Assembly: GCA_047495785.1 (NCBI GenBank)
Contig: JBLDXI010000042.1
Coordinates: 2,852,001 to 2,916,000, forward strand
Direction of reading: 5' to 3'
DNA from: Lepidodermella squamata
Lineage: Eukaryota; Animalia; Gastrotricha
Length of the DNA stretch: 64,000 nucleotides
Positions 945 to 21,403 of this stretch are shown here, piece after piece; the stretch's first letter is position 1; each line of letters starts with the position of its first letter. Below the pieces are notes generated by a model. It was not told where the DNA came from and searched no databases. It saw nothing but the letters and a program-made list of their open reading frames with translations. Both the position numbers and the translations under genes were made by a program.

Positions 945-1367
945 TTCATCTTCTCCTTTTATATCAAAAATCACAATATTTAATTGCTTAGATTTTTTGG
1001 CGATTATATATAAATTGTCTCCAATTTTTTTTGGCTTTTCTCAAGAGTTTCATCTCTCCTCATAATTCTGAGAGAAATAAGATGCATGATGCTTTGAAAA
1101 TCTCAATTTTTTGTAAAGCTTTAAAATCCAATTTTTCTGAATATTTTTTTTTGCATATTAATTATCATAATTAACCTTTCTCGCTATTCTTTATTGATCC
1201 CAATTTTAGTCCTCAAAATATTATATTATTTGAAGATCTTCTGTATTTATACTTCCGCATAATACTTTGTTTTATTCAAAACTGCGTTGATTTCGCTGCG
1301 AACCGCGACAAGGATAAGAGAGATAAAAATAAAAAGGAGTTGCGTTAATATTTTTTACCAGCTGATT

Positions 1368-4198
1368 TTATGACGATGCGATTGTTGACGGAGTGATAGC
1401 TCTCTCAACGAGATTTCCTGACCCACTTTGATGAACCTGGAAGAGAAACGATTAAGTAAAAATTGAAGCTCAACAAACTGAAATTATACTTGTAATAGCT
1501 GTAAGGTGAGATTGATTAGGCTCATGGCGATTACTACACAGCTGATAGCTACGTGAACATTCGCGAAACTCGAATCGAGAGCAAGAGCCAGGACAACTGC
1601 CGCCCCGATAAGTATAAATTGAGCGTAAACGGCTGTCCTCAGCAGAGCAATCTCGGGAAACGAAGTTTTCGTTGCCTATTAAACAAAGAAAAAATAATAG
1701 TTCTAGAATTGCGAAGTTTCTGTGATAAGAACTCACTGATCTCAGAGCTATGGAAAGGAAGATCAGTCTACCTAGAAGTAGGCCAATCCAAGCGATTGAT
1801 GCTCCAAGGAGACCTAGCGAGACTTCGGATGATGGCATGTGACAAGCGAACCAAACTTGGCGAATGTTAGTGCTGACTTCAGTTGGGGACGGAAAAAGGT
1901 CCCCATAAACTCTCTCAACTTTCAAGCCATCAATGGATAGCCAGAGAACAAAGAGGATTACCAGAACCACAACCCATACTAAGCCAGCTGTTGCGTATTT
2001 CGAAAACACCTTGCGGGCGGATTTTATCAGCGAGCTCTGATAGCTTGCATTCCCGGCAACTGCTTGCGCCTGCTTGAATCTACGACCTACCTGAGGACTT
2101 GGATGTGATCGAAATAACGACAGGGGTGAAAATCCTCGAGGTACAGCAAATTTGTTGCCAGCTAAAGCAGCCACTGCAGCTGAAAATGTCTCAAGCTTAA
2201 CCCACACAGAAACGAACACCATCCCGCCACCGCTCAAGATCAACGCATAGATAATGGAGCAATTTACGTGTGCATTTCGCTCTATCCCGTACGGAAGACT
2301 GATGACACTTGAGACGAAAATGCAGTTTCCGATTGCGAATGAAACATCGATTGGCGCGAAGTAAAATCTGCTCTTCTTTTTTTGACAACTCTGAATTATC
2401 ATGCAAGGAATGCTGATCGCCATAATAATAGCGGAAATGACTGCAAAATAACGAAAAATAAGGAGTGATGCAAATTCGAAGAAATTCACCTGTGAGGGAT
2501 ATGTAAACTGAATCGTCGATGGCCGGAACGACGGACAAAACTGTTCGAATCGAGTCTCCCGGGGGTTTATTGTTTAACGTACCCCATTTGATCCCATTAG
2601 GACCCAGAACGAGTGGTTTGGATGTGCTACTAACGTTGAAGTAACCGATTGAGTTACGCAACAAGCTCCCGTTGCTGTTTTTGAGTAATTGGTTGAAGAC
2701 AATTGGGGCGAATCCTTTCGTGTTATCCTCAGTTTCAGCCTCGTATTCGAAATCGCATCGCTGGCCGCTTAAACGGAAGTTATACAGACTTTTCACCATG
2801 GTCTCGAAGAACCATTTTCCGTTGTTTTGAAAGTTAGGGGCGCTAGTTACCCAATTCGACAAAGTATCGTTACCTGTTGGGATTAAATTATTCTCAGAAT
2901 CAAGTTCAATTATCTATGTCTTACGAGTATTTAGGAACGTTTCCGTTGAGTTTAACCAAGCAGCCATTAGCAGTGTCAAATCGTAAAGCATAATTGGCCA
3001 TAAGGGCCATAGTGAATTCGAACTAAGATTATCTGATATTTGCGACTGAATTCCGGTCAGGACTTGATTAGCAGAAAACCCGCTGATGTCGACTGCAGAC
3101 GGTCCTAATACCTCGGCTTTCGTGTTAGGATTACCAAACGTGAAAAACCCATCCATCACGTCTACGAGCATAGCTTCCGTGCACCATTTGTACCTGGTTG
3201 GATCGCTTGGACTGAACACTGTTAAAGACATATAGAAAATCGCAATGCCTTTTCCGTAAAGGTTGTATCTGTGGAGGAAGCATGCTAATCTTGCACCGAA
3301 GTTGCTGTTGATGTAGATTATCCGTGGGTTGTTACTTGCCAGCTCCTCCACAGCCATTCGCATGTCATTTTCATCGGGAGCGCCAAATGCGGGTACCTTA
3401 TGCAATTGCAAAGTCATATTTCGCTTTTCCAGGTCTCTCTGCATGGCGATTTCCATTGCGTTGTAGCTAGGGCCGATGTCTGACAAGACGTGAAGCCTTC
3501 GCCAGCCCATGGCTTGCATGAAGTAAACTAGGGAGAGTTGCACGTTGGTTATCAGAGGTCCACTGACGTAGTATCCAGCAAATTTGCGGCGATCAAGGAT
3601 GATTTCAGGGGTTGAGGATGTTCCGGTCATCGCCACGAAGTTGTAGTGGTGAGTGAAGTGACCTCTGCAGGAAATCAAGGTAAAATAACCATGAAATCAG
3701 AACTACGACTTACGTCCAAGTCTGGGCTCCGCAAAGAGTTGCGATCATCATTGGAACACGATTATATGCAACATCAGCCGAGTTGAATCTTCTGACTGTC
3801 GCAGGGATTGTATCAGCTCGTGCGCACTGCAATCATTTTGAAAGTATAGAACAATAATGAATAAGGTTAACTTTTCTTACAGTGTCGTCAAAAGGTTCTA
3901 CCACTAGATCGTAATCTTGAAGAAGCCCTGGAACGGTTTCGATTCTATCCAGAGCGAGTTGAATAGCTTTCGATGCCATTGCGCGCATAGGAAAAACTGC
4001 GCCGGCGTAATTTATCGACGCAAGGATTGTTATCAACTTTTTTCCTGGTCTAGGAGTACCAGTGAAGTTGAGGCCTCCCAAAGCTGTCGAGGCGATATAT
4101 CTCGGAATCGGGCTGTTCAACGGAATGCTCATCTGCTGCCCAGTTGAACACATAAGACTACCGAGTAAGATGCTGAGAGCAACAATTAACTGGGGCAT
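1368..4198 (-). CDS. Class C (GABA-B-like) GPCR, copy 1: signal peptide, ANF/periplasmic-binding-type ectodomain, 7TM; multi-exon
   Basis: ORFs 3833-4198, 2914-3678, 2197-2862 and 1470-2489 are separated by ~50-bp introns. Motifs AIQLALDRI..LLQDYDL..DD, MGWRR, WGTLNNKPPGD, then hydrophobic helices and LWLSIDGL..FAC. Stop TAA at 1368-1370, homologous to copy 2. Confidence 0.75.
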
Positions 4199-4955
4199 GT
4201 TTTAACTGAATAAAATTTAATACTGAGGTCGAGTTCCTTTTGGTTGAGAATGGCTTTTGAAGCGCATCTAGGCTGGTAGCGTGGTGTTGATTAAGGAAGT
4301 TGCGAACGCGTGGGAAAATCGGGGAAATTCCACAGCACCAGCAGGAGGGCGTCGAAAGAATCGGATGCACTTTGCTTCGTTAATTCCTAATGGTGTTTTC
4401 ACACGTTCTACGCTTGGACACCTGATTCATTTAAAAGGTAAAGGAACCGGAAGCGAATAGGGTTTTTGCAATACGATATTCATTTTTTTGCACCTAAAAC
4501 TAGTAGAAACTTTTAAACGTCTCTACAAACTCGGTGCACTAAGCAGCAATTATCGTAGCAGGGTAACGTACTACGTACTGCCCTGAAATGAAGCATTTTT
4601 TCAAACGCATAGGCAGATATTTATCAGAGGCCCGTTCATTTATTCAATAATCAATCGCAATTCTTTTGAAAATTCGGTTCAGTTTGATAATTTTTCAGAT
4701 GTTAGAGACTGATTGAGAGACATAAGGCACGGAAGCGGTGGCAGATTGTTGATGTTTGTCATAAAACTCAGGTTACGACGATTCAGGTCACGGTAATGTT
4801 GTGTACCCAATTTCGCTAAATGCAGGTGCGATTTCAACCATTTCCAAATTGCGGCATTTCTTCAATTTTAAAAATAAGTTGTTGAAGGTTGGGTGAAGAG
4901 TATTCACAAGCTTGTTAAAAGCACCGTTCCAAGCTTCTGTGTCAGTAGTAGGGGG

Positions 4956-6910
4956 GGGTCATTCCAGGTCAAATCGACCGACGACCCAACCCATGTTCTC
5001 AGATCATCCCCGAACTAATTTTATCGGATAGAGCTCAAAAAATTAGGAAACTTTTACTCTTGTGACTTTTTTCAATGACGCAAGGGCGGGCTTCTAAAAT
5101 TAAAAAACGAAAACCGACTCTAAATCATAGCAACGGTTGCCAGGTTGCTAGATCTCACCAGGTATGAACGCTCAAGGCGAGCTCTTTTTATCAGACCATC
5201 ACGTCGACGTACTCGAGCGATTAGAGCGGCGTCTTGCTTTACCTTGACTTACTGTTTTCCAGCATGGTTAAAAGAACTTAAAAAATTAGCCAAAAATCGC
5301 TATTTTCGAATCAATTTTTCACCCTTTCGAACGCGGTTTTATACCTCAAATTTGATACCATCGGATTCAGCGCAAAAAGTTGTATAACATATGTCAAAAT
5401 CACGAGGGTAATTTTCTTCTATACCGAGAATTAATTTTACGAAGATTGCCAAAAAGCATAGCCAGTAAGCACACCATGTTTACAATTATAATTAGGTTTT
5501 GCAAATGGAATTTTCTGAATGCGTGATTGCTAATGATTTAACAGTCATTATCCATGTAATTTATATTAAACTTGACGGGTAGCAAAGCAAATCTTACAAC
5601 TGGGCTTACGGGAAGCTGGTAGAGGTTTACTGTCACCTGTGTCACTGAAGAACTTATGAACAACGAATGCCTATTTGCCTTATCCGCAGTGGGACAGCAG
5701 TGGAAGCTGGAGGATATTCCATTTAGGTCTAGGAACTTCATCTATATAAGTCTAGGAACTTCATAGGTATATAATTCCTCCGCTGTACTAAATGTCACAT
5801 GTTATAATTTCTTTCAATACTCTTCAAAGCCTCACCTTAGACTTGCCTTACAACCAAAAAATCGAATTTCGGAACAATATGGAGCTGGTAGCTTAAGTTT
5901 AACGTATATACTTATTTACCGAATACAGTCTTATTTAAATATGAATTCGGATTTATTTGGCTTTCAACAATGGCGCAGAGTGGGACTTGCCGCAAGCAAC
6001 CGCAAAAGCCAGTGTGAGGGCGTATAACCGTAGAGAGGCTGTGATGGAAACGGCATGAAAAGGCTAAGCACTAAACTCTATCACTTAATGAATCGAACAA
6101 TGATGACCTGCCATTCGTAGCCTTGGGAAATAACTCAAGTGAACAAGGGATTACAGTACAAGATTTGCTAATTGGTGATCAAATGATATCATCAAGGGCA
6201 TAACTAGCCTTACGTCAATTGTGGGGCTTGGTGTGGCATATCATGAGCTAGTATCCGTTGTATTTTGATGTCGGTCTATTCCATAAGCTTGTATGGATAT
6301 ACGGCATTCGATCACGAGTTCGGGTGAAACAACTATAAAAATGAACAGATCATCCCTCAATCATCCACGTGCTTGAAGAGAGCGCGTGTTCTATCTATAA
6401 TATTATATGCTTTTTGGCAATCTTCGTAAAATTAATTCTCGGTATAGAAGAAAATTACCCTCGTGATTTTGACATATGTTATACAACTTTTTGCGCTGAA
6501 TCCGATGGTATCAAATTTGAGGTATAAAACCGCGTTCGAAAGGGTGAAAAATTTATTCGAAAATAGCGATTTTTGGCTAATTTTTTAAGTTCTTTTAACC
6601 ATGCTGGAAAACAGTAAGTCAAGGTAAAGCAAGACGCCGCTCTAATCGCTCGAGTACGTCGACGTGATGGTCTGATAAAAAGAGCTCGCCTTGAGCGTTC
6701 ATACCTGGTGAGATCTAGCAACCTGGCAACCGTTGCTATGATTTAGAGTCGGTTTTCGTTTTTTAATTTTAGAAGCCCGCCCTTGCGTCATTGAAAAAAG
6801 TCACAAGAGTAAAAGTTTCCTAATTTTTTGAGCTCTATCCGATAAAATTAGTTCGGGGATGATCTGAGAACATGGGTTGGGTCGTCGGTCGATTTGACCT
6901 GGAATGACCC
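4956..6910. mobile_element. Non-autonomous DNA transposon / foldback element with 505-bp TIRs (4956-5460 and 6406-6910) and a ~945-bp core
   Basis: GGGTCATTCCAGGTCAAATCGACCG... at 4956 is the reverse complement of ...CGGTCGATTTGACCTGGAATGACCC ending at 6910. The arms are nearly identical (one mismatch seen near 5312/6554), which explains the identical ORFs 5145-5387(+) and 6479-6721(-). TSD not clear. Confidence 0.9.
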
Positions 6911-6948
6911 GAGGGGAGGAAAAGTTAACGGTTTTTCCGATTTGAATA

Positions 6949-7497
6949 TTTCCCGCGCGACCTTGACCTTGAGCTAACCCTAACCCTAACCCTAACCCTA
7001 ACAGGATTCCTTAACCCTAACCCTAGGCCTAGGGCTTAACCCTAACCCTAACCCTAGGGCTTAACCCTAATCCTTAACCCTAACCCTAATCGATAATCCC
7101 TAGCCGATAACCGATTTCGATCAACCGATATTGATTGATTTTGAATTAATTTCCCGCCAAAATAGGCGTAACCCTAACCCTAATCCTTAACACTATTCTT
7201 AGGGCTTAACCCTAATCCTTAACACTATTCCTAGGGCTTAACCATAATCATTAACACTAACCCTAATCGATAATCCCTAACCCTAGTCGATATCGATTGA
7301 TTTTTCCAACGGAAAAATAATTTGAAATTTTCCCGCCAAAAACTATTTTACCGCCAAATATTCCCGCCAAAACCCTAGTCAAAATTTGAATTTTCCAAAA
7401 TTCCAACGGTCACTCGCTAGTTTTTGAAAAGGAAAATTGAAACTTTCCCGCCAACCATTATTTCAGCGCCAAAATACCAAAATATGACCTTGACTCT
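6949..7497. promoter_or_regulatory. Cluster of E2F-like TTTCCCGCC(AAA) motifs plus TGACCTTGAC nuclear-receptor-like half-site repeats
   Basis: TTTCCCGC(C/G) at 6949, 7150, 7329 and 7444; TTCCCGCCAAAA at 7361; near-matches at 7348 and 7461; GACCTTGACCTT at 6959 and TGACCTTGAC at ~7485. Function is inferred from consensus only. Confidence 0.45.
6974..7286. repeat. Degenerate telomeric-type (CCCTAA)n arrays in two blocks (~6974-7100, ~7169-7286)
   Basis: Runs of ctaaccctaaccctaacc with variants cctagggcttaacc and cctaatccttaac. Confidence 0.9.
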
Positions 7498-7979
7498 TCC
7501 GGCATAAATTCAAACTTCTAAAATGTAATGGGCATGTGACGCAAAAGTAACCAATGCATGAGTCATCTTGCAAGAGTGAAAGTACCCTCTGGAATTGTCA
7601 CGTTTTACGAGACCAAGCCAAGCTTTTATGTCTCGCCAACGGTCAGCTGCGAATATTCTTAAAATGTCAGCTTGACATAACGGCAACTTGCTATGATAAT
7701 AAATGCGGAGTCAACCTTTTCGTCATATGTGTAGATTCCGCTCTGGTAATGAAAGACATTTCAGCATACAAAAGTTAGTAAAACTCGACTGCATTTTTCT
7801 ATTTGTATCCTTGGATTGAGAAAAGCCATGGAGTGCAATCTTTACATTTACTTCGATTAGATTTCGATAGCGATTTCGAAATACAAAGGTTAATATAATG
7901 TTTAATAATATTGTAATAATGTTGATTATTTTTTTTATATACAGGTCACCAGTTGGCATTTTCCTCCTCCACAGGAGGA

Positions 7980-8416
7980 CTAGGGGGGCTGTGGAGGAGG
8001 ATGAGGTACGAGTAATCCGTGAATGTCCCATAATATCTGGATGATAGTGTTGTAGCTGGCTACTGAGTTCTGCAAGTGATCATACATTTGACCTGCCTCG
8101 TCGTAGCTGAAGAAAGAAAAATATAAGGTATGTTGAATTTTTTGACATTAAATACGTACAGGTTTACAAATAGTTGAAAGAAAATTTCAGCTATTTGAGG
8201 ATTAGCCATTTCAGGATAAGTAGATAAGTAAAGTTGCCAAGTAAAATGATGCGTAAGAATATGACAAGGTATTGTACAGTTGATATAAATTTTGTAAGAT
8301 TTCGCCAAAAAATGTTTTTGAAAACTGAGCGTTGCATCTCGGCACCATTTATACAATGTATATGCAGAGAAGTCGTTAACAGGTAGAATGTAATAAAAAG
8401 CAAGTAAATTCGTCAT
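7980..8416 (-). CDS. Small hypothetical protein of the Maverick-like element (2 exons), possibly frameshifted at its 3' end
   Basis: ORF 8060-8416 splices through a GT-AG intron at 8107-8159 to YDEAGQMYDHLQNSVASYNTIIQILWDIHGLLVPHPPPQPP*. Confidence 0.4.
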
Positions 8417-8451
8417 GTTACCTCATTTTCTCATTTTTCTTGGAATATTAA

Positions 8452-9000
8452 ATGCTTGAAATTGATGTTACTGTGCAAAATGTTGTTTCCACACTCTCGC
8501 TGGGGGTACATTTTGATCTGCGGAAAATTATTCACCTCTTCAAAATGGTTGAGCTTAAACAAAAGTTTCCAAATGCTCTCGTCATTAAAGAGCCGCACTT
8601 CAACGCTTTGCTATTTAAAAACGGGAAAGTAGTGCTTTTTACGAAGAATCCTGAACTGGCAAAAATTTATGGGCGAAAACTGGCAAGGAAACTACAGCGA
8701 CAAGACAACACTGCCATAAAGGTATCTAAGATTCGCCTGGTAAACAGTACTCTTGCGGGAAAGATGCCAACTGGAATAAACATAACTGAGGCCTTAATAG
8801 CTCGTGTTGCCAAACTCTGTGCGCGAGCGATATATGATGATACTAGATTTCCGGCACTGCGGTGTAAAAATGTGACCAATGGTTCAACATGCGTGAATGT
8901 ATTTTCGTCGGGGTGGATAATAGTGACTGGCATTAAAGATTTAACTACACCTCTGACGCAGCTTGAAACTATATTATATGCGATACTATATGAGAAATAA
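8452..9000 (+). CDS. Divergent TATA-binding protein (TBP)-like protein, core domain only, intronless
   Basis: Two TBP repeats: VQNVVST..FDLRKI..FP..LLFKNGKVV and IRLVN..YDDTRFPAL..VFSSGWIIVTG; 182 aa. Confidence 0.85.
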   Translation: MLEIDVTVQNVVSTLSLGVHFDLRKIIHLFKMVELKQKFPNALVIKEPHFNALLFKNGKVVLFTKNPELAKIYGRKLARKLQRQDNTAIKVSKIRLVNSTLAGKMPTGINITEALIARVAKLCARAIYDDTRFPALRCKNVTNGSTCVNVFSSGWIIVTGIKDLTTPLTQLETILYAILYEK

Positions 9001-9942
9001 AAATTGGACGCGACACACACTCGACTGAATGTTAATAGCCTACGTCCATGCTACTATGTAGTAGTAGCATGCCATTGAAACTGCGTACATTTATTCTTAA
9101 ATTTAGCGTCTATGATCTTAGGCTGTTCCGATGCTATGGAAAGAAGAACTGCTGTAATAAAAATTAAGATTTCGCAATGAAACTCTGGGGAATCAATTCT
9201 AATCTGGAGCAGTTATCCACAATTCAAGTTCATCGTTGTACTGTTTCGCCAATGCCTTTAATGTTGACGGAATCATCACATTCCGTCGCAGTTTGCTCGA
9301 ACGAAGTTATTCATAGAAATTAGAAATAGACCGTTTTACACACACTGGAAATCGATGGGATCCTCAGGTATGATTTGTCATGACTACATTTAATTCAAAA
9401 TAGCTAAATTTCCATTTCATTCATTCAGATCATATATGGAACAGGATCCGGATAAGTGTAAGTTCTTAAAGACATAAATCAATCAAAATTCATTGTATTT
9501 TTTTTTTCTTAGACGCTGCCCGATGACATGTGTCAATATGGTGCGCCGTTAAGTAATAAAAGTTTTCAAGCAAGCCGATTGTACGCGATTTAATGTGCGG
9601 ATATTGTAATAAAAATTGAGAAACACTTGAAATCGGGTCGCTTTTTATTACAACGCGTGCTGATCAACAATAAAAATTCAGAAACAGTTGCTAAATAAGC
9701 AATAAAAATATGAATTTGGAGACATCATTCGGAAACGAGTAAACCGTTGAAAAGTCATTTAAATAAGCTAACGTTCTCGAGGAATGAAACTTGACAGTTT
9801 TCAAATGAGCATTATATCCCTATGAGTTTTTAGCCGAACCCAATTTATTATCATTATTCGTGAAAATCGGACAACTATTTTCCATCTTCATTAGTGAAAA
9901 ATGGATTTTCACGGGTTTTTCTGCTATTCTCCGCGATTCAAG

Positions 9943-12390
9943 ATGGACGTTGTCAAATATTCCTCGCAAGCGATCGATCCTTCAGATCAGATAGGGTTTG
10001 GATTTGAAGACGACGCCGATGAGGATGATGAAAGCGGCTTGGAAATACTGAAACTTTTATCGAAAATTAATTCGCAATTCGAAGGATTGGTAGAGAAATT
10101 GCGAAACTCTTTCCATCCATGGTAGGAACTCGTTATTTAAGAGTAAAAATGAAACTTTTTAACTGAAAATTAGGGATTACGTTCGGGTTGAACTTTTCCA
10201 CCCCAGCTTGAATTTTCCAGTAAATACGAAATACCTTCAAGTACAGGAATTGACTGGTGCTATGATCATGGACGAGATAAACTCGGTGATGCAGTCTAGA
10301 CTTTCAATAGCCATGAACAACGGTTCGATTTAATATTACTGGAACTTGGAATGATTTTCATTATTAAAATTAGGCTGGAGCTACAACATCTATAGAATTG
10401 CAGTGGGTGAACTGGAAGATGGCGAGCAAGGCTACGGTGGCAAGGGTGGTAAACGACGCCGACTTGAGGAAACAATGGTTGACTTCATAATGGGTCACAA
10501 TGAAGTCCTTCCAGTGGAAAATGATGCTGATAATCACTGTCTCTTCAGGTCAATCGCACATTCTCTGTTATATCGTGATCACAAACAACCCCGGCCGGGC
10601 TGCCAACCTCACGGTGACTATGACAGACTACGGCCAGGATTTTCGAAAGACCGCATGTCAACATCCGAACTAGCGAATCTGGAAAGGGCTGCAATCAAAG
10701 CATATCAGGGCGAACTAGCACTGAAACTCATGAATGCCGCGGGAATCCAACCTAATCAAATGGCATATGGTCTTGACGAATTCAAGCGGGTTATTGATAC
10801 GATTGGCTTACCCTATCGAGGCAATAATTATTTTAAACAAACTAAAATTCGATAAAAACTTTTGGAAATTAACAGGTGTTATTTACAACTTCATGGATAA
10901 GCAAACGATGGCTGTACATCCGGAAGCAGGACTCACAATTGCCGATGAGCGAAAAATTTTGATCGGTTATATCAACAACAGAGCCTTGGCATCACATCGC
11001 GAAAGTGGGCGGTACGATCGAAGCGTGGGACATTATGTTGGATTTACAAGTAGGAGAAATTTATAAAATGCATAATTTGAAATTCATTCCTAAAAAATGA
11101 AACAGGCATTAGCACAATTTCTGGGGAGAAGATGATGTGCCCGCGATGTTTCATGTTGCACAAGAAAAACAACCTGCAGCACACGTGCCGTTTTAAGTGC
11201 AACAGGTGCCAGCGAGCCGGCGCAACATGTCGTGACTCGAACGAACGAACAATGTTATGCGGGAGTTGTGGCTTATTTTTCCACGGGGCCCTGTGTTTCA
11301 TGAATCACCAGACACCTGAAACACCCGGAGCTGCGACCATTTGCCAGTCCTACTTCATGTGCGGCAAGTGCGGTAGGAAAATTGGGATAGCGCAAAAGGG
11401 AAAACATAACTGTGAGTTGATGAAATGTGAAAAAATCCACCTTAATTTTTGCTACAATGTGACTATAGGTCAATCTCGGACGTGTCGAACTTGTAACGGG
11501 CCAATAAGCTCGGAGGAGGGTGACGAGGAACACAGCTGTGTCATTCAACCAGGCAGGCTTCGCAAAGATCCTCTGCGAATTGCCGGAGCTTGGGATACCG
11601 AAACAATTCAGTTGGAAACCGGAGAACTAGTGCCAGTCGTGATAGTGTTGAACATGTTTTGTGACTCGTGTCAACACATGCTTGTCACCGCAACGTGTCC
11701 CAAATCGTGTACTGGTGACGACCCGCGCCAGCAGATCTTCGTTTTAACTGGTGCGGATTCCACCTGTGTAAACCAGTTTATGAAATTTTTGCTGCGAGAA
11801 AAGTATTCTGGAATTTTACTTCTCTCTCATAATGGTTCAAGGTGGGAAAATCGAAGAGTTAGATTTCGAAAATTTAATTTAATCTCGCTATAGATTCGAT
11901 AATTTTATGGTCCTGAAATGGTTACAACAGCACGATTATCAGTTCGATCATATTTACAAAAATAACACAATTATCGAGCTATCTGTTGAGAAAAAAGCAA
12001 TCGTATTTCGAGACTTTTACCTCCTCTCCATGTCATCGTTGGCTTCGCTTTTCCACTGCTTCGGTCTGGATGAGGATGCGAATGCAACTGGAAAGGAATT
12101 TTTTCCCTATAAATTGCTGACATCAGCGAATTTCCTTTCCGATAACGAGCGAGACTTCCCAACCTTGGATGACTATGACACAAACCGGCTTTCGGATTCA
12201 AAACTCGCTGAGTTGCAACAATTCTTAGCTGAAAATCAGCATCAAAAGTTCCACCTTCGTAATCAGCTGATTAATTACTGCCAGTCCGATGTAAATTTGC
12301 TGCATAGAGCTTTAATCAAGTTCCGATCGATGTTGCGAGAATTCACAACCCGAGACGACAAGTGTCCGGAAGGCATCGACGCTATATGGG
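9943..12390 (+). pseudogene. Polinton/Maverick protein-primed DNA polymerase B (N-terminal region, Zn fingers, 3'-5' exonuclease), intron-containing, truncated before the polymerase domain
   Basis: The spliced product has DYVRVELFHPSL..LT..IMDEINSVMQS, NDADNHCLFRSIA, GHY..TS, a Cys-rich region, ExoI WDTET, ExoII HNGSRFD, FRDFY..SL..L, GKEFFPY and ExoIII YCQSDV. Introns at 10122-10173, 10323-10373, 10821-10875 (GC-AG), 11050-11105, 11412-11468 and 11842-11893; a further donor at 12391 has no recognisable continuation. Confidence 0.85.
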
Positions 12391-12727
12391 GTATGATTAT
12401 AAAAGAGTCGCTAATCTACTTTTTACGGTCGATCTTTGGCAAGCCATTTGAACAGCACAGAAACTTTTGAAGACGACTAACCAACCTGAAGAGTAGCCAA
12501 TTTTTTTTCATTGGAGTCACATCTGGCTGGTTCCGGCCTTCTGGGACCGGCTCCAACTGGGAGAAGACTAAACACCTATCCACTGGCGAATTCGATTGAT
12601 AACTTTGATCGAAACCAGAACGAACCCAGATCAAACCAAACAATGAGTTAACAAAGATTGCTCGAAAAATCGCCTGAAATCAGCTAGGCCGATAGGGCGA
12701 TTTCGACCACTTTGACCACTAGGGATT

Positions 12728-15548
12728 CTAGGACGATGCGATTCTTGAGGGGGTGATAACTCTCTGTACGCTATTTCTTGCTAGAGTTTGATAAACCTGA
12801 GAAATACCAAAGTAAATTGAAGTTAAAAGAGTCACAGTTAAAATTACTTGTAACAGCTGAATACTGATATTTATGAGACTCATGGCGATTACTACACAGC
12901 TGATGGCCACGTGCACATTCGTGAAACTGGAATCGAGAGCAAAAGCAAGTACCACCGCCGCCCCGATAAGTATAAATTGAGAGTAAACGGTGGTTCGCAG
13001 CAAAGCAATCTCGGCAAACGAATCTTTCGATGCCTGTAATAGGAGGAAAACTTACTTATCGCGAAATTTCTATGGTAAAATAACTCACTGATTTCAGAGC
13101 GATGGAGAGGAAAGCCAATCTCCCTAAAAGTAGACCAATCCAAGCGATTGATGCTCCAAGGAGACCTAGCGAGACTTCGGATGATGGCGTGTGACAAGCG
13201 AACCAAACTTGGCGAATGTTAGTGCTGACTTCAGTTGGGGACGGAAAAAGGTCCCCGTAAATTCTCTCAACTTTCAAGCCATCGATGGATAGCCAGAGAA
13301 CAAAGAGGATTACCAGAACCACAACCCATGCTAAGCCAGCAGTTGCGTATTTCCAAGACACCTTACGAGCGGTCTTGATTAAGGAGTTCTGATAGCTTGC
13401 ATGAGACTGGTTAGATTTCGGCCCAGGAAGAAGACGGCTGGGATTTGATCGAAATGATGCCAATGGTGATATCCCTTGACGTATAGAGAATTTGTTTTCC
13501 GCCAAAGCCACGACTGCAGCTGAAAATGTTTCGAGTTTTGCCCAGACAGAAGCGAATGCGATCCCACCACCGCTCAAGATAAAAACATACGATAGGGAAC
13601 AATTTACGTGGACATTTGTCTCAATTCCGAATGGCAGAGAAATGACACTCGAGACGAAAATGCAGTTTCCGATTGCGAATGCAACATCGATTGGCGCGAA
13701 GTAAAACTTTCCCTTGTTCTTTTGACAACTCTGAATTATCATGCAAGGAATGCTGATCGCCAAAATTATTGACGAAATGACTGAACAAGATCAAAAAATT
13801 CTAACGATTTTTGCGAATTTAAAACGCTCTCACCTGTGAGGCCTATATACACTGAATCATCAATTGCTGGAACGACGGACAAAACTGTTCGAATCGAGTC
13901 TCCCGGGGGTTTATTGTTTAACGTACCCCATTTGATCCCATTAGGACCCAGAACGAGTGGTTTGGATGTGCTGCTAACGTTGAAGTAACCAATCGAGCTA
14001 CGCGACAAGCTCCCGTTGCCGGCCTTGAGAACTTGAGTGAAGACAATCGGCGCAAAACCTTTCGAGTTATCTTCAGTTTCAGCCTCGTATTCAAAATTGG
14101 CTCGTTGACCGCTTAAACGGAAGTCATACAGACTTTTCACCATGGTATGGAAGAACCATTTTCCGTTGTTTTGAAAGTTAGGGCCGCTAGTTACCCAATT
14201 TAACAAAGTATCGTTACCTGTAGAGATAAAACAATTCTCGGAGTTAAGCTCCATTAACCGACTTACGAGTCTTTAGAAATTTTTCGGTCGAGTTCAACCA
14301 AGCAGCTATTAGCAGTGTCAAATCGTAAAGCATGAATGGCCATAAGGGCCAAAGTGAGTTTGTGCTAAGATTGTCCGAAATTTGCGACTGAATTCCGGTC
14401 ATAACTTGATTAGCAGAAAAGCCGCTGATATCGACCGAAGACGGTCCCAATACCTCGGCTTTCGTATTGGGACTACCAAACGTGAATAGTCCATCCATCA
14501 CATCAACAAGCATAGCTTCCGTGCACCATTTGTACTTGCTTGGGTCGCTTGGACTGAATACGGTTGTAGATATAAAAAATAATGCGAATCCTCTCCCATA
14601 AAGGTTGTATCTGTGGAGGAAGCATGCTACTCTCGCACCGAAGTTACTGTTGATGTAAATTATGCGTGGATTGTTGCTTGCCAAATCTTCCACAGCCATT
14701 CGCATGTCATTTTCATCGGGAGCGCCAAAAGCAGGTATTTTGTGCAACCCTAATGTCATGTTTCGTTTTTCTAGCTCTCTCTGTAGGGCAATTTCCATGA
14801 CGTTGTAGCTTGGGCCGATGTCGGACAGTACATAAAGCCGACGCCAGCCCATGGCTTGCATGAAGTAAACGAGGGAAAGTTGGACATTGGTTATCAGAGG
14901 TCCACTGACGTAATAGCCGGCGTATTTACGGCGATCAAGGATAATGTCGGGCGTTGAAGATGTCCCAGTCATTGCCACGAAGTTGTAGTGGTGAGTGAAG
15001 TGACCTCTGTGAGATAATTAATAAAATAAAATCTGAAAAGAGTCATACAGCTTACGTCCAAGTTTGAGCCCCACAGAGAGTTGCGATCATCATTGGAACA
15101 CGATTACATCCAGCATCAGCCGAGTTCAGTCGTTTGACTGTCGCAGCAATTGTATCAACTCTTCCGCACTGCAATCATTTTGAATATATTTCTGAATTAG
15201 GTAAACCTCTCTTACCGTGTCGTCGAAGGGTTCTACCACTAGATCGTAATCTTGGAGAAGCCCTGGAACGGTTTCGATTCTATCCAGAGCAAGTTGAATA
15301 GCTTTGGATGCCATTGCGCGCATAGGAAAAACTGCGCCGGCGTAATTTATCGACGCAAGAATTGTTAACAGTTTTTTTCCTGGTCTGGATGAACCGCTAA
15401 AGTTTAGTCCTCCTAGGGCGGTCGACGCGATATATCTCGGGATTGGGCTGTTTAGCGGAATGCTCATCTGCTGCCAAGTTGATCGCACTAAACTACCGAG
15501 TAAGACGACGCTAACAGCAACGACGGAAGATCTAATGGATTTGTTCAT
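12728..15548 (-). CDS. Class C (GABA-B-like) GPCR, copy 2; multi-exon paralogue of 1368-4198
   Basis: ORFs 15126-15560, 14244-14978, 13766-14254 and 13056-13763 are nearly collinear with copy 1 and share intron positions. ATG at 15548 (MNKSIRSSVVAVSVVLL), stop at 12728. Confidence 0.75.
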
Positions 15549-16183
15549 CTTTTTATTCAATCGAAATCAAGGTTGAAATAAATGTCCTTGGTTTGACGCT
15601 GACCATATGAGCGCGCTATTTATGCATTTTATGGGCGTGCTGTTGATAAAGGAAGCCACGAGCGCGACAGCGTGGGGAGATTCCTTTGCGCTGTAGGTGG
15701 AGCGCATCGTAGATGACGGATGCACTTTGATGCATTATTTCTGATGTGGCTACTTTTCACTTTCAGTGTCTTTCTAAACTTGGACGTTGGCTTCAGCATG
15801 CAGGTCTGAAATATCGCGAACAAGCCGGAATCGAGTAGTACTTATCGTAATAGGACTCACTTTTGGCTGTCACGACATGTCATGTGAGTTTTCGTATCAA
15901 GAAGCGGACAATCTCCAGTTACACCCCCTAAGGCAGGATCATGGACAATCAATTGCGTACCATTGCAACAGAGAATGGGGCCCTCGATTATGGCCGAAGA
16001 AAATGCTCATTCTCCAAGTCCGGCTGGAAATGCTCGCTGAAATTCACCTTGTATCTCTTCAGAGCCGGACTTCATATAAATGGCGATATCTTTAATAGGT
16101 ACTGTATTTTTATTTATCGGAAAATTTTTTCATCAATAGGTTTGGGGTTTGATATTTGATCTTTCTTATGCGCAAATTGCTCT

Positions 16184-17563
16184 TTAATTATCGTCGCCGT
16201 CTGTGAAGCATGGTGGGACGGGGCTTGAGTTGATAGCCTTGCCTTGAAAGTAAGAGCATAGATACTGACCTCCTTTGACTGGCCAACCCCCTCCGCCATG
16301 TACATTCACGCTGTCAAACAAAATACCAGTTGCTGGATTCGAAACATTTGCAACCATAATGCCCGGCGAAAGAACTCCGTCGTAGATATTCACGCGCTGC
16401 AGCGTGATATTCCTCAGCGAAATGTTCGGGTTAGTTTGGCATTTCGTATTAAAAGCTGGGTACAAAAACGAGCAGCCGGTACCGGTGCCATGGGGCTGGT
16501 GTTGCTGCTGAGTGCCTATAAAAATTGCCCACCAAAGCGGACGGTGAATGTTGATATCACGATAAGCGATGTTAGCAATAAGACCAGTGCCGTGGTCTCC
16601 CGGGTTTGGTTTGATATAAATAGCTTTCAGGGGCGTCGTGAAGTTGACATCAACAACTTCGACACCATCGATGCAGTTCACGTTTGGATTTGGAGGGACT
16701 GAGCCGATACTCATGCCCACGCCTAACACGACGTTAGAATGGGTGATTGTGATGTTTCTAGTGCAATTCGACCCGAATTGACTTCTATCACCCGCATTCA
16801 TCGGCTTGACAGCAACAGCGTCGTCAAAGTTTTCAATCGTCACATTTGTGATGAGTACGTCTTTCCCAGAGACGTCGATGCCATCCGTATTGAGCGGAAA
16901 AGTCGGAATAGTGATTCCTAGATGATTTTCAACAAGCTTCCCAGCGCTCTTCAGGATTTTCTTCTGACCATCGACATCAACATAGATCGTCAAATTCCAG
17001 ATGCGCGCACCAAAAACATCTGTTATGTCTATGTGGTATTGAGGGGCGTTTTCAACTCTGAATCCAGTTAGGGTTACATTAGAGGACGAATCGATTACTA
17101 AAAGGTTAGGCCGATGGTCTTGACCTTTAACTATCACGAAATTCCACCATTCGTAGCCATTTCCCAATATTGAACCGGATCCTTGAATAGCCAGGTTTGT
17201 TGCATTGGTGAAGCGAATCATGTTGTAGACGTTATCAGGGTACCCGGGCCAGTTTTGGGCAAAGTTATCGGTGTATGCAGAAAGGTTGCCATCAAGTTGG
17301 ATTACTAAGTTTGATACTCTATCAATTTTCAGCTCAGCTGGTAGGAAAGCGTAGGTCTTGCCACCAGGAATCAATACTTGGCGATTCATGGGGTCTGAAG
17401 ACGCATTGGCTGCGGCGACTGCGCTGGCAAAGGCAGCCCCGTTGGCAAGAGCTTGGGTTTTGGAAAATACTCCGGCAACGGCTCCGAAACTTTCGATATT
17501 AGTTTGCTGCAGCGAGAATCTGCAGAGGCTGATAACCATCAGAATAGTAGCCGTGAGCTTCAT
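16184..17563 (-). CDS. Secreted glycoside hydrolase family 28 (polygalacturonase-like), intronless
   Basis: Signal peptide; FGAVAG, GNGYEWW, RP, NTDGIDV, NFDDAVAVK, GMSIGS and YIK motifs; beta-helix composition. Confidence 0.9.
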   Translation of the reverse strand: MKLTATILMVISLCRFSLQQTNIESFGAVAGVFSKTQALANGAAFASAVAAANASSDPMNRQVLIPGGKTYAFLPAELKIDRVSNLVIQLDGNLSAYTDNFAQNWPGYPDNVYNMIRFTNATNLAIQGSGSILGNGYEWWNFVIVKGQDHRPNLLVIDSSSNVTLTGFRVENAPQYHIDITDVFGARIWNLTIYVDVDGQKKILKSAGKLVENHLGITIPTFPLNTDGIDVSGKDVLITNVTIENFDDAVAVKPMNAGDRSQFGSNCTRNITITHSNVVLGVGMSIGSVPPNPNVNCIDGVEVVDVNFTTPLKAIYIKPNPGDHGTGLIANIAYRDINIHRPLWWAIFIGTQQQHQPHGTGTGCSFLYPAFNTKCQTNPNISLRNITLQRVNIYDGVLSPGIMVANVSNPATGILFDSVNVHGGGGWPVKGGQYLCSYFQGKAINSSPVPPCFTDGDDN

Positions 17564-18388
17564 TTTGCTGCCTGCTTCAGTTGCAATTTAGTTTGAATGA
17601 CTGACAAAATAATGCCAACCAGACAATCTGAAACTTGCCGGTGGTGAGGCCTATTTTCTAGACCATTTTTTATCTGCATGAGATAAGCAAAACGAATAGC
17701 ATGACCGATGACAAGTAGAATAAGGTTGTGGTGCACTTTATTTATAGCTCAGCAGTTTTACAGCAAAATGAGCTATTTCCAACTTGAATTTACCCTCGAG
17801 CGTGGTGAATTTACCCTCCATAGCTGCAATTTTATTTTATTTAATTCAGATATTTTTATATTTTCAAACTTGAATCCGAGATCCGAAGGCATTTTGTGCG
17901 ATCTGCAATCTTATGCGTTTTTTCCATCAATTCATCACTTCCGGCAGTTCGGACATTTTTGTGCGGTGCAATTTCACACGCGCTAGGTTGATCCGACGTT
18001 TTCTGAAAGCAACTTTGAAGTAATTATCTTAAAAACATGTTTTCAGTTTTCAAAGATGACAAGATTTACGCTTTTAATAATCACTAACAAGATTTGAACT
18101 AGAGGGGTACGAACGAGCAGTGTCATCGTTTTCAGTTCGGTGTACCGCGCATCCAATTTCATAGAAGGAATTATACTTGCCCAGAGTCTATTCGTTAAGG
18201 AATGTCGGGGCAAATCGTCAATCAGCTCGATTGAAGTGACTAAATGTCCAGTAGCACGCGTTTCCAACAAATGCGTAAAACCATTCATAAAAAGATATTT
18301 TTTGCAAACATTTTATGGATCGCACGATCAAGTAGCAAGGCGGAGTCATGGATACGAGCCAACTGACCAATCAGCGTGCGGATTTTTT

Positions 18389-20797
18389 TCAACTTACAAC
18401 CTCAAACACAATGGATGTCAAAGCAGACGAGATCAGCGTAAAGAACGCTATAACGATTTGTTGTTCAGTGACTTGCCCGTTCAATATGACGCATATTAGC
18501 AGAGCTGCGACGATTAACACCAAAGCATTTATCTTGGCAACAGCTGCATATGTGAAGTCCATCCTGCCGAGAGTGAATGCAATCTTCCGTTTCTTGATCA
18601 CGTTTGGATAGTCTCTTTTCAATAGATACCACGTTAGAAGACCAATGACCAGAATAAAGATGTTGAAACAAATAGCTGAAAAAACCCAAGCTGTTTGGTA
18701 ATTTGATGAACATGATCTGACAGAAGTGGTGAGAAATGTATCAATATCATCGTCATAAAATTTCGAAATGACCATCTCACTGCAGGTGACAGGATCAATA
18801 ATAAGCCAAACAATCAAGAACGTAGTTAAGGTGGCTGTAAGGGCACTGCAAATTGAGTTTGAAAGCTTTGCTGCTTTTCGGGCCAACTTTTTCTCCAGGC
18901 TAGAATCATTTAGGCGATCAGGTTTGCGTAACTGCGATGCGTTCGATGCTAGTCTGTCAAAACTAGCCATTTCTTGGCAAGAATCATCCGAGTCACGCTT
19001 GCTTATATTACCGGAGCCGAACGTGTTTAAACCAGATTTTTTCGATGACGCAGCACGTTGCGGCTCAAAGTGATTCGCGGCGACTGGGTCAAGCATGAGA
19101 ACGAAAACAGCCGACAAGGATCGACAGACCAAGAGGTCATGCATACTTGTGATTCCTAATACAAGAAAAACAGTCCTGACGATCGAAATAAGCTCTGAAT
19201 TAGGGCTGGCCGTGAACGCAACAGCTGATGTATTCGCAACTATACAGCTCAGAGTTCCTACAGTAAGAACAAAGGCGGAATTTGTCTTCTTCTTTGAAGT
19301 GCAGAGAATGATGGCTGCCTCGACTGCTTGAATAAAGGATATTAGGGCGCCCAATGCTAACACAGAAATAAAAACGCCATCTGAAACCCGTTCATCGATA
19401 TCAATGTGGAAAGCTCCGTCTCTGGGCGGCTTTTTCCAAGCAAGCCAGTCGAAGTTTTGCCCTGCACTGCTTCGTATTTTGTAGTCCGTGTAATCTGCAC
19501 TAGCAGATGCCCCCTCGTAATTCATTTCGAAGACAGTTTTCAGGCCACCTTGATCTTGCGCGACGCTGATTACTGCAATGTCACCTTCTTGCTGACCGTT
19601 CGCACGACTGAAGCGTACTTTTGACAGTCGAAGACCCACCGCACTGACCGCCATCATCGATCGATTAACGTACTCGCTGATCATTCGTGGTTTATTTTCG
19701 TAATCGGAGAGAGTCAAATTAGCTTGCTGTCTCAGCTGTTTATCCGCGTGATCTAAGACGAGGGCGGCGAACATGGCTGTGTCGTAGTAAAGGTATCGCC
19801 GCTCGTTATCCGGAGGCTTCGAACCATTCAAACGTCGATCGAGTTCTGTATCGTAATCCGCCAAAGTATGACCGATTGATGACGCTTCACTGGCATTTGT
19901 CTTTCGAAAAATTGGTCCAATGAAAAATGTGTACCTTTGCTGCTCGAGGACAATGTCCCTCGTACAATTCGGGTAAGGATTTGGGGGAACTGCTCCTGGT
20001 GGAGTGTAAGCCGAAGTCGTGGTTATGAACACATACCTCTCTCCCGTAATACCAGCTTTGTAGGCTAAGCAGTACAATGGCCATAGATTAGCTGTCAGTG
20101 GAGTGTACAGCACGATTATTCTGACATCTGCAGCTTTGATGGAATCAATGAGCGTTTGATCAACCGTGATAGAGATACTGAATACCGGCACGGTGAGATT
20201 CCTCGACAGAGCTAATTTTTGAATTTCCAGCGAGCCAATGTAGTCATTGAGACTAGCTACAGTGCAAGCTACAGCAAATCGACGCCACTTTCCAATGAAC
20301 TCGATGAACTGAACCAAAGCTTTTATGTAAGGATCATTACTCCATGTTTGAAGAAACAGATTAGGATATCTGACGCGGTTGGTTAGTTGAGTTGCTTGAC
20401 AATTAGTGCTCAGAAGAACTGAGTCGTAGTGATGCAGTAAGGAACCCATCACCTGGCAGCTTGCCGACTGAAATCCTCCAATAGCGAGGGCTGATTTTAC
20501 TGGAGATGTTAATCCATTACCAGACCGGTTGTTGTAATAGTTGGCAATCACAACAGCAGATCGGTCTCCGAGAGTTTCATCGTCAAATATTGGAACGAGT
20601 TCATAATCAGGCAGTATGTCTGAGCGGTTGTTGATAGTTTCGAAAACAATGTTGGCGCTATGAAAGCAAGGTTCACAGAACTTTGCTGGGCGTTTTGCCA
20701 CTGTTATGATATCCAAAACTTGAAGCTTTTTAGGCTTTGCAGCGCTCGAAGACGAAGCCAGAAAGACGATGGTAATAATATAGCAATGTTGAAACAT
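18389..20797 (-). CDS. Class C (GABA-B-like) GPCR with ANF-type ectodomain, single exon
   Basis: Signal peptide MFQHCYIITIVFLASSSSA; INNRSDILPDYEL, LTNRVRYPNLF, KWRR, DVRIIV, YVFI, YDT, KPPRDG, then 7TM with WLIIDP..CSS. Confidence 0.8.
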   Translation of the reverse strand: MFQHCYIITIVFLASSSSAAKPKKLQVLDIITVAKRPAKFCEPCFHSANIVFETINNRSDILPDYELVPIFDDETLGDRSAVVIANYYNNRSGNGLTSPVKSALAIGGFQSASCQVMGSLLHHYDSVLLSTNCQATQLTNRVRYPNLFLQTWSNDPYIKALVQFIEFIGKWRRFAVACTVASLNDYIGSLEIQKLALSRNLTVPVFSISITVDQTLIDSIKAADVRIIVLYTPLTANLWPLYCLAYKAGITGERYVFITTTSAYTPPGAVPPNPYPNCTRDIVLEQQRYTFFIGPIFRKTNASEASSIGHTLADYDTELDRRLNGSKPPDNERRYLYYDTAMFAALVLDHADKQLRQQANLTLSDYENKPRMISEYVNRSMMAVSAVGLRLSKVRFSRANGQQEGDIAVISVAQDQGGLKTVFEMNYEGASASADYTDYKIRSSAGQNFDWLAWKKPPRDGAFHIDIDERVSDGVFISVLALGALISFIQAVEAAIILCTSKKKTNSAFVLTVGTLSCIVANTSAVAFTASPNSELISIVRTVFLVLGITSMHDLLVCRSLSAVFVLMLDPVAANHFEPQRAASSKKSGLNTFGSGNISKRDSDDSCQEMASFDRLASNASQLRKPDRLNDSSLEKKLARKAAKLSNSICSALTATLTTFLIVWLIIDPVTCSEMVISKFYDDDIDTFLTTSVRSCSSNYQTAWVFSAICFNIFILVIGLLTWYLLKRDYPNVIKKRKIAFTLGRMDFTYAAVAKINALVLIVAALLICVILNGQVTEQQIVIAFFTLISSALTSIVFEVVS

Positions 20798-20900
20798 TTG
20801 AATTAATGAAGATGATAAATACTCGAGATTAAAATGATTGGATTTACCTTGAAGCTGATGCTTTCTAATTACCAAGACTTCGCCTCCCCGCGGTCTCTCT

Positions 20901-21403
20901 TCCTCTCCCCATTTACATCGCCCCCGCCGTGGCGAGCGAGCTACGTTTGATCTGAGCTTAGCTCGTTAATTTTGTCACGTTTTCTTTTCGACATGCGCAA
21001 AATAAAAAAATTTCGCTGAGCATTGACTCTTTCTCATACATAGGTAATAAAATAAAAACGAGACATAACTTTAACCTCGTTTCAGCGTCGATTTATAAAA
21101 ACATAAATGTTATTTTTGGGACACAAGAACTTTTGATATTTTTCGACATAAAAAAAGTGGAGTGTATATAGTCTTTTCATGCTAAGAATACGCAGAATAG
21201 CAGTACCTTGTTTTTGAAGGTGTCCGAGGTTGAAGGTATGAATTTACCTTCCGCATTTACCTTCGGCAGAATACTGCCTCATTCGCCGGGAAGGCGCGTT
21301 ATTGCCCCGCGGAAAGAGATATTTCCTCTCCCCATTTACATCGCCCCCGTCGTGGCGAGCGAGTTACGTTTGCTCTGAGCTTACAGCTCGTTAATTTTGT
21401 CAG
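20901..21403. repeat. Pair of ~80-100-bp direct repeats (20901-~20980, 21324-~21403); probable transposon remnant
   Basis: tcctctccccatttacatcgcccccg.cgtggcgagcgag.tacgtttg.tctgagctta..gctcgttaattttgtca occurs twice. Confidence 0.75.

What the first reader, a model, noticed from the sequence alone, without database searches (positions are those of the whole stretch)
6974..7286. Telomeric (TTAGGG)-type arrays inside the element's terminal region
Degenerate CCCTAA arrays begin ~75 bp inside the reconstructed terminus (after the nested element is removed), C-strand on top, as at a left chromosome end. Known parallel: HHV-6 and Marek's disease virus carry terminal telomeric repeats used for integration. 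Inference: they may recruit telomere proteins to protect a linear episome, or bias insertion. If they mirror the host telomere, the host uses TTAGGG rather than the arthropod TTAGG or nematode TTAGGC.
Basis: partly seen in the sequence, partly recalled or inferred. Interest (0 to 1): 0.7.

Follow-up and report, generated by a model that had tools for sequence, protein, structure and literature searches.

The report
Telomere repeats inside Maverick virus ends
Short arrays of telomere-type repeats sit 75 bases inside the end of a virus-like jumping element in an unidentified animal, facing the way a real chromosome end would, and they likely act as landing sites for host telomere-binding proteins rather than as a guide into chromosome ends.

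Summary
Observation confirmed. Two degenerate CCCTAA arrays (6974-7089, 7169-7292; 14 TAACCCTAA nonamers, all on +; longest perfect run 4 units) start 75 bp from an (AGT)2 Maverick/Polinton terminus, not counting a nested 1,955-bp foldback element. A contig from another organism lacks that insert and confirms the terminus. The element encodes an intron-split, truncated protein-primed polymerase and a TBP-like gene and is multicopy. Depth over the arrays is 1.95 times the adjacent internal depth, as expected if both terminal inverted repeats carry them (inferred). The arrays alternate with five E2F-like words, arose partly by a 177-bp duplication and decay inward. Telomere targeting is not supported: both insertion sites seen are non-telomeric and the runs are short. 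Best reading (0.45): iterated host telomere-protein sites in the terminal origin/promoter, like the nonamers at EBV oriP, possibly shielding free linear ends. One unrelated pPolB virophage contig (L140) has such arrays at both ends in the same polarity. I found no description in print. The scan noted motif arrays of another kind in a Maverick-like end (e1-9359705), not this. Host telomere motif untested.

The parts
4944..4955 (+). Outermost 12 bp of the Maverick/Polinton left end: (AGT)2-type terminal motif followed by a G-run
   Evidence: Sequence; motif class in PMC8097293; X3 contig shows such an end directly before 6913
4956..6910 (.). Nested non-coding foldback element, arms 4956-5460 and 6406-6910, inserted in the G-run; a separate mobile family; no target-site duplication could be read
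   Evidence: 505 nt, 100% complementary arms; 4 X1 contigs continue beyond 6910/6911 into other flanks; no ORF over 87 aa
6911..7435 (+). Rest of the left terminal region, inferred to be the terminal inverted repeat (about 540 bp with the outer 12 bp; inner edge approximate)
   Evidence: X1 contig depth 500 at 7098-7203 versus 256 at 7406-7955; depth falls near 7435-7446; right end is not in the window
6959..6972 (+). Two CCTTGA hexamers roughly in phase with the array: degenerate telomeric units or nuclear-receptor-like half sites (label recalled)
   Evidence: CCTTGA occurs as a variant unit inside unrelated telomeric arrays
6974..7089 (+). Array 1: 10 TAACCCTAA nonamers, 4 perfect units at the outer edge, CCTAGG palindromic nodes
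7090..7168 (+). Spacer between the arrays with ATCGAT/CCGATA words and an E2F-like TTCCCGC at 7151
   Evidence: present in X1, X2 and X3 contigs
7169..7292 (+). Array 2: more degenerate duplicate of array 1 (4 nonamers, 32-bp higher-order unit)
7319..7473 (+). Cluster of E2F-like words (TTCCCGC at 7330, 7361, 7445; also 6950 and 7151; label recalled), all on +
   Evidence: 5 observed in 6911-7480, shuffle mean 0.12, 0 of 2000 reach it; repeat families D4, D6, D7
7759..9632 (+). Spliced, polyadenylated inward transcript (start unknown); GT-AG introns 7889-7944, 8128-9121, 9368-9428, 9458-9512
   Evidence: Joints and poly(A) in contigs of run X2, two of the joints also in X4; splice dinucleotides and AATAAA at 9608; RNA status of X2 is the tool's guess
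8452..9000 (+). Intronless TBP-like gene, lying inside the 994-nt intron of the transcript above
   Evidence: PF00352 E 9.9e-19; nearest Atlas clusters are viral/archaeal TBP-like, score 0.96
10355..12389 (+). Exon-bearing frames of the N-terminal half of a Polinton-type protein-primed DNA polymerase: protease(vOTU)-like part, zinc-finger part, exonuclease part; polymerase core missing
   Evidence: hhalign to pPolB alignment A2: prob 92.9 and 99.3; PF03175 E 5.5e-13
12400..12410 (.). Approximate break point: this copy is truncated here and lacks integrase, capsid genes and the right end
   Evidence: X1 multicopy contig ends at 12404, junction contig 12375-12687 at depth 39; X3 loose end behind 12404

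Best explanation
The arrays are part of the terminal region of a multicopy Maverick/Polinton element, likely present in both inverted repeats, where they would act as repeated landing sites for the host's double-stranded telomere-repeat-binding protein inside a combined replication-origin and promoter module. Shown: position 75 bp from the (AGT)2 end, telomere polarity, 14 nonamers interleaved with 5 E2F-like words, growth by slippage and a 177-bp duplication, presence in copies from other runs, and a spliced inward transcript just downstream. Inferred: after excision the element is a linear DNA primed by its terminal protein at the outer end; host telobox/TRF-like protein bound 75-370 bp inside would assist origin or promoter activity, as at EBV oriP, and may damp end-joining of the free ends. 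Integration would rely on the element's own integrase at ordinary sites, not on the repeats.
For: Enrichment and one-strand polarity. Terminus confirmed by the insert-free X3 contig. Depth 500 versus 256, ratio 1.95. Only 7% of what was laid from X1 on 6870-7800 runs on into unlike sequence, whereas the true dispersed repeat at 12659-12713 shows dozens of loose ends. pPolB identity. The repeated word equals the reverse complement of the TTAGGGTTA nonamer that recruits TRF1/TRF2 and supports replication at EBV oriP (PMC13223232, passages), so short interrupted runs suffice for binding there. Free adenovirus ends are fused by MRN/NHEJ unless protected (PMC13685816, passages). Independent parallel: L140, a 12,427-bp contig with pPolB, Sputnik-like capsid, and CCCTAA arrays at both ends in telomere polarity, perfect outside and degenerate inside.
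Against: No binding, chromatin or mutational evidence. The host, its telomere motif and its telomere proteins are unidentified. The right end was never seen; depth is not a copy number according to the tool, and extra tandem units or end-only derivatives would also double it. The tool skipped 6958-7096 as repeats, so no listed contig bridges the terminus and array 1 in another copy. Array 2 is decayed (24% perfect), which fits drift. 0 of 41 other pPolB-like viral loci had tandem TTAGGG within 700 bp of the locus ends, though I did not classify these, they matched weakly and many lack true ends. L140 is a single unverified contig of a different lineage. Terminal proteins already cap such ends, so extra shielding may be unnecessary.
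Confidence: 0.45

Rival explanations
1. Neutral minisatellite: a short C-rich word in the terminal repeat expanded by slippage during strand-displacement replication and was spread by homogenisation of the two ends; the likeness to a telomere is incidental.
For: Higher-order units of 19, 25 and 32 bp and a 177-bp duplication; many variant units and palindromic nodes; other words (TTCCCGC, ATCGAT) are repeated in the same way.
Against: The exact TTAGGG hexamer, telomere polarity and perfect-outside/degenerate-inside gradient recur in an unrelated pPolB virus; polarity alone is a 1-in-2 chance.
Confidence: 0.25
2. Telomerase scar: a broken end of an ancestral copy was healed with telomeric repeats, the 75-bp priming end was regained by recombination, and the repeats have been carried along since without function.
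For: Polarity is that of telomerase addition; the best run is outermost and decay increases inward, 52% versus 24% perfect. Telomerase-type insertions at breaks are described (PMC2246262, start of abstract in listing).
Against: Needs two rare events; the arrays are interleaved with and duplicated together with non-telomeric words; they persist in copies from three coded organisms.
Confidence: 0.17
3. Telomere-integration device, as in MDV and HHV-6: the repeats steer copies into host telomeres by homology.
For: Terminal position and polarity resemble herpesvirus telomeric repeats (PMC3058580, PMC7197865, passages); virophages and PLVs were found near telomeres in one protist (10.64898/2026.07.28.741278, passages).
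Against: 2 of 2 insertion flanks seen are non-telomeric; longest perfect run is 4 units against 27-100 in the MDV integration array; the integrase-type (AGT)2 end is intact at the junction.
Confidence: 0.07
4. The arrays belong to a separate repeat family (for example Helitron-like) that inserted into this element's end.
Against: The excess is only about twofold and extends over the non-telomeric spacer and terminal part; low share of unlike run-on; no second copy in the window; 0 of 14 metagenome hits to the flanking motif resembled this region.
Confidence: 0.06

Closest known systems
Maverick/Polinton elements (polintoviruses; adintoviruses of Starrett et al., PMC8502044; vertebrate Mavericks, PMC8097293)
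   Same: (AGT)2 end motif, terminal region of about 540 bp within the reported 46-1,447 bp range, pPolB with vOTU-like and zinc-finger parts, multicopy; TBP-like genes are listed for MELD viruses in PMC8502044 (figure legend passage).
   Different: Telomeric arrays inside the terminal region ('telomer' occurs 0 times in the main texts of PMC8097293, PMC8502044, PMC11071308 and 10.1101/2023.08.22.554363); spliced introns, whereas intact vertebrate Mavericks are intronless; pPolB piece at most 38% identical to any of the 150 best library hits.
EBV oriP dyad-symmetry element with TTAGGGTTA nonamers (PMC13223232)
   Same: Same nonamer word, used as short internal binding sites next to a viral origin rather than as a homology tract.
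   Different: EBV is a circular episome replicated by host ORC/MCM with EBNA1 and has three nonamers; here a linear, protein-primed element with 14 overlapping nonamers and no tested binder.
Terminal telomeric repeats of MDV and HHV-6A/B (PMC3058580, PMC7197865)
   Same: TTAGGG arrays near genome ends, perfect and imperfect parts; TRF2 binds the HHV-6 arrays.
   Different: Herpesvirus arrays are long (27-100 units in MDV), and these viruses integrate into telomeres; here at most 4 perfect units, and the insertions seen are interstitial.
Rumen-type pPolB virophages (PMC4409740) as represented by contig L140
   Same: Linear genome with pPolB; L140 has CCCTAA arrays 32-265 bp from the left end and at the right end, in telomere polarity, decaying inward.
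   Different: Virophage capsid, no integrase among the ORFs listed, intronless, longer perfect run (11 full hexamers in a row); not a close relative (tblastn of window pieces gave no hit at E 0.05); the paper's main text does not mention telomeric repeats.

Membership tests
Maverick/Polinton | [quoted passage not shown] | tested here: met
   PF03175 E 5.5e-13; hhalign prob 92.9 (protease-like part) and 99.3 (zinc-finger/exonuclease part) to 27 pPolB homologues; only the N-terminal half is present
Maverick/Polinton | (AGT)2 or (AG)3 end motif | tested here: met
   4944-4951; similar end with one change in the X3 contig at a different flank
Maverick/Polinton | Terminal inverted repeats at both ends | tested here: inconclusive
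   Right end absent from the window; depth ratio 1.95 fits two ends per element
Maverick/Polinton | 6-bp target-site duplication | not testable with these tools
   Copy truncated near 12404; no whole genome held
Maverick/Polinton | Retroviral-like integrase, packaging ATPase, protease and capsid genes | not testable with these tools
   Not among the window's 33 ORFs scanned; they would lie beyond the break
Herpesvirus-type telomeric integration repeats (MDV, HHV-6) | Long perfect TTAGGG tract near the terminus | tested here: not met
   Longest perfect run 4 units versus 27-100 for MDV mTMR; the short MDV array has 6
Herpesvirus-type telomeric integration repeats (MDV, HHV-6) | Integration into host telomeres | tested here: not met
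   2 of 2 flanks seen are non-telomeric; other copies unmapped
oriP-like telomere-factor sites | TTAGGGTTA nonamers next to a replication origin | tested here: met
   14 nonamers, 77-360 bp from the terminus; that the terminus is the origin follows from protein priming (PMC11071308, passages)
oriP-like telomere-factor sites | Binding by a host TRF-like protein and an effect on replication | not testable with these tools
   No binding data; host unidentified
True telomerase-maintained telomere | Repeats form the physical DNA end | tested here: not met
   75 bp of non-telomeric sequence lie outside the arrays

The most novel reading that the evidence does not exclude
Protein-primed linear DNA viruses of eukaryotes (Polintons and pPolB virophages) have independently built pseudo-telomeres: host-matched telomere repeats placed just inside the terminal-protein-capped ends, which recruit shelterin-like proteins to block end-joining of the free genome and assist replication, a DNA-encoded alternative to adenoviral anti-MRN proteins.
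Probability: 0.25. Interest if true: 0.75.

Novelty: new variant of a known kind. Interest (0 to 1): 0.52.

Why it matters
How Mavericks/Polintons persist as free linear DNA in the nucleus is largely unknown, and their terminal repeats are rarely dissected. If they borrow host telomere proteins through repeats just inside their ends, that gives a testable end-protection and origin mechanism, extends telomere mimicry beyond herpesviruses, and predicts that the repeat motif tracks the host, which could help assign hosts to orphan virophage and Polinton-like contigs. If the arrays are neutral, the finding is a minor feature of one element family.

Tried and rejected
No whole genome was held, so copies could not be mapped and the host telomere motif could not be read. 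No RNA holder was on record in the run search. Run X5 laid nothing on 6870-7800 (no proof of absence). Word-index protein searches for the TBP-like and pPolB pieces found nothing; the full-library search found 320 distant pPolB relatives. Pattern scans of viral contigs for array plus E2F-like word, and for AGT-type end plus array, gave 0 hits; the window's pPolB piece found no locus. The metagenome scan for the CCTTGA doublet plus array gave 14 loci; 0 of 14 had an AGTAGT within 260 bp upstream or a TTTCCCGC word nearby, and they are GC-rich (48-72%) eukaryote-like contigs with intron-like telomeric inserts: rejected as relatives. I took ORFs from 15 of these loci and scanned 27 of the 45 ORFs, from 12 loci; 1 of 12 had pPolB. 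L182, the only relative of L140 found (capsid 49% identical), has no arrays but starts inside pPolB and ends about 100 bp from its last ORF, so it is uninformative. A variant-unit pattern shared by the window and L140 hit only L140 itself. A single-gene tree (36 rows, quick method, 35 chosen from the 120 listed hits; no nematode or tardigrade name was among those listed) left the host on a long branch outside the sampled arthropod, mollusc, deuterostome, cnidarian and rotifer rows: host unplaced. The 530-nt terminal strand folds with z -2.9, mainly local hairpins; one canonical G-quadruplex motif lies on the minus strand; neither was used as evidence. The bacterial promoter scan is not applicable. 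Pfam and PDB searches did not name the protease-like piece; only the profile comparison did. A 7-of-50 comparison was out of register and was redone.

Full report
1. Observation. The arrays are real. TRF reports a period-6 array at 6974-7089 and further units at 7169-7292. 12 of 13 window matches to a double hexamer fall in this region, against 0.09 expected. The region holds 15 CCCTAA on + and 1 on -; the longest perfect run is 4 units. The nonamer TAACCCTAA occurs 14 times, always on +, against a shuffle mean of 0.04 and one occurrence in 56,540 bp of host sequence. Perfect hexamers cover 52% of the outer and 24% of the inner array. The two arrays are related by a duplication: 78% over 136 nt, with a core of 47 of 50 nt at offset 177. 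They alternate with five TTCCCGC words (E2F-like, label recalled; 0 of 2000 shuffles reach five), three ATCGAT words and four CCTAGG palindromes.

2. The element. A foldback element with 505-bp perfect arms occupies 4956-6910. Left of it stands an (AGT)2-type motif at 4944, the commonest end motif of vertebrate Mavericks (PMC8097293, passages). Leaving the insert aside, array 1 starts 75 bp from that end. One contig of run X3 (organism C) has such an end and a G-run directly before 6913, with a different flank, which confirms both the terminus and the nested insertion. Other X1 contigs leave the insert's right end into other flanks, so it is a separate family. Inward lie a TBP-like gene and frames that match, in order, the protease-like, zinc-finger and exonuclease parts of Polinton-type pPolB. 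The N-terminal terminal-protein and vOTU domains of such polymerases are described in PMC11071308 (passages). The copy breaks near 12404; integrase, capsid genes and the right end are absent, so membership rests on the polymerase and the end motif.

3. Other copies. The run search listed 6 runs, 5 of them holding part of 7290-12480. In X1, internal contigs have depths of 100-314 against 39 for the junction contig, so the element is multicopy (depth is only a rough guide). The X1 contig over the spacer and array 2 has depth 500, the next internal contig 256, ratio 1.95, and depth drops near 7435-7446. This fits arrays in both terminal inverted repeats of about 540 bp, but extra tandem units or end-only derivatives would do the same. 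X2 and X3 contigs also cover parts of 7098-7330. Only 7% of the X1 material on 6870-7800 runs on into unlike sequence, unlike the real dispersed repeat at 12659-12713. X2 contigs show GT-AG joints and poly(A) for a + strand transcript from at least 7759 to 9632, which fits an inward promoter in or near the terminal region; contigs cannot show its start.

4. Insertion bias. The window copy lies between two paralogous receptor-like genes in gene-dense DNA, with no doublet of four tested telomere motifs in the flanks. The 30 flank letters shown for the X3 copy are not telomeric. MDV's integration array has 27-100 units and its short array 6 (PMC3058580, passages); here the maximum is 4. Telomere targeting is thus not supported on 2 of 2 sites, a small sample.

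5. A parallel. Among 12 loci whose ORFs I scanned, one (L090, whole contig L140, 12,427 bp) encodes pPolB and a Sputnik-like capsid protein, the gene set of rumen virophages, which are described as linear with terminal inverted repeats and no integrase (PMC4409740, passages; 'telomer' 0 times). L140 has CCCTAA arrays from base 32 to 265 and, in inverted orientation, at its right end. The left array begins with 11 full perfect hexamers in a row and decays inward, as in the window. It is not a close relative of the window element, and it is one unverified contig; its only relative found lacks its ends. 0 of 41 other pPolB-like viral loci showed tandem TTAGGG near their locus ends; I did not classify these loci and many do not reach both contig ends, so this is a weak control, but it shows that the feature is not general among them.

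6. Mechanism. The arrays cannot be a true telomere, because 75 non-telomeric bases lie outside them and the end is expected to be protein-primed. They are too short for herpesvirus-type homologous integration. They do consist of the word that, as three single nonamers, recruits TRF1/TRF2 to EBV oriP and supports its replication (PMC13223232, passages); TRF2 also binds HHV-6 repeats (PMC7197865, passages). Free adenovirus ends are joined into concatemers through MRN unless viral proteins intervene (PMC13685816, passages). I therefore favour iterated binding sites for a host telomere-repeat protein within an origin/promoter module (0.45). Rivals are neutral slippage (0.25), a telomerase scar (0.17), telomere integration (0.07) and a separate repeat (0.06). 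Position, polarity, structure and presence in other copies are shown; presence at both ends is inferred; binding and function are untested.

7. Host motif. The host is an animal without a close named relative: named homologues of a host enzyme are 55-59% identical and spread over many phyla, and a quick single-gene tree leaves it unplaced. TTAGGG is called ancestral and TTAGG arthropod-specific in the abstract starts of PMC6410037 and PMC8977481 (search listing only), so a match would be the default expectation; it was not tested.

8. Novelty. Full-text searches combining Polinton, Maverick, adintovirus or virophage with telomeric terms listed no paper describing telomeric arrays inside such terminal repeats. 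Term look-ups found 'telomer' 0 times in 10.1101/2023.08.22.554363, PMC8097293, PMC11071308, PMC4409740 and PMC8502044, and only unrelated uses in PMC11296320, PMC4992247, PMC6431247 and 10.64898/2026.07.28.741278 (passages). I read passages only, no whole texts or supplements. The original descriptions by Kapitonov and Jurka and by Pritham et al., Repbase entries and supplementary sequence files were not seen and may show such arrays. Earlier scan notes held nothing on this sequence. One unchecked note reports transcription-factor-like arrays inside another Maverick-like end (e1-9359705), which agrees with the motif-module reading but is not independent support.

9. Verdict. A real, well-placed feature of a divergent Maverick/Polinton, a new variant of a known kind. 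Interest 0.52; the pseudo-telomere reading has probability 0.25 and would merit 0.75.

Noticed in passing
L140 (= L090), 32-265 and 12367-12427: 12.4-kb rumen-type virophage contig (pPolB, Sputnik-like capsid, ATPase-like and protease-like ORFs) with CCCTAA arrays at both ends in telomere polarity; 31 non-telomeric bases lie outside the left array. Single contig, ends not checked against reads.
   Followed up: partly
window 7759-9632 and 8452-9000: A spliced, polyadenylated inward transcript (run X2 contigs) has a 994-nt GT-AG intron that contains the whole intronless TBP-like gene on the same strand.
   Followed up: partly
window 9898-12400: The pPolB reading frames are interrupted by short intron-like stretches like the host's; intact vertebrate Mavericks are reported as intronless. 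Splicing of these was not seen in the contigs listed.
   Followed up: no
window 4956-6910: Young foldback element with 505-bp perfect arms and no coding capacity, inserted 12 bp from the Maverick end; superfamily and target-site duplication undetermined.
   Followed up: partly
window 12659-12713: 55-bp hairpin-forming dispersed repeat with dozens of different flanks in X1-X3 contigs, near the element's break point.
   Followed up: no
window 12403-12641: An X1 contig (depth 47) goes back 239 bp with 33 other letters between; unexplained local rearrangement or second allele at the break.
   Followed up: no
window 1364-4386 and 12724-15741: Two paralogous receptor-like genes (about 83% identical over 2.8 kb) flank the element; a third ANF-receptor-domain ORF lies at 18389-20965.
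   Followed up: no
window 16184-17587: Intronless glycosyl hydrolase family 28 gene in an animal genome, a candidate horizontal acquisition.
   Followed up: no
L001-L014: Intron-like inserts made of telomeric repeats, several with duplicated flanking exon sequence, in GC-rich marine eukaryote-like contigs; the scan noted such inserts before (e1-7377132, e1-7377310).
   Followed up: no
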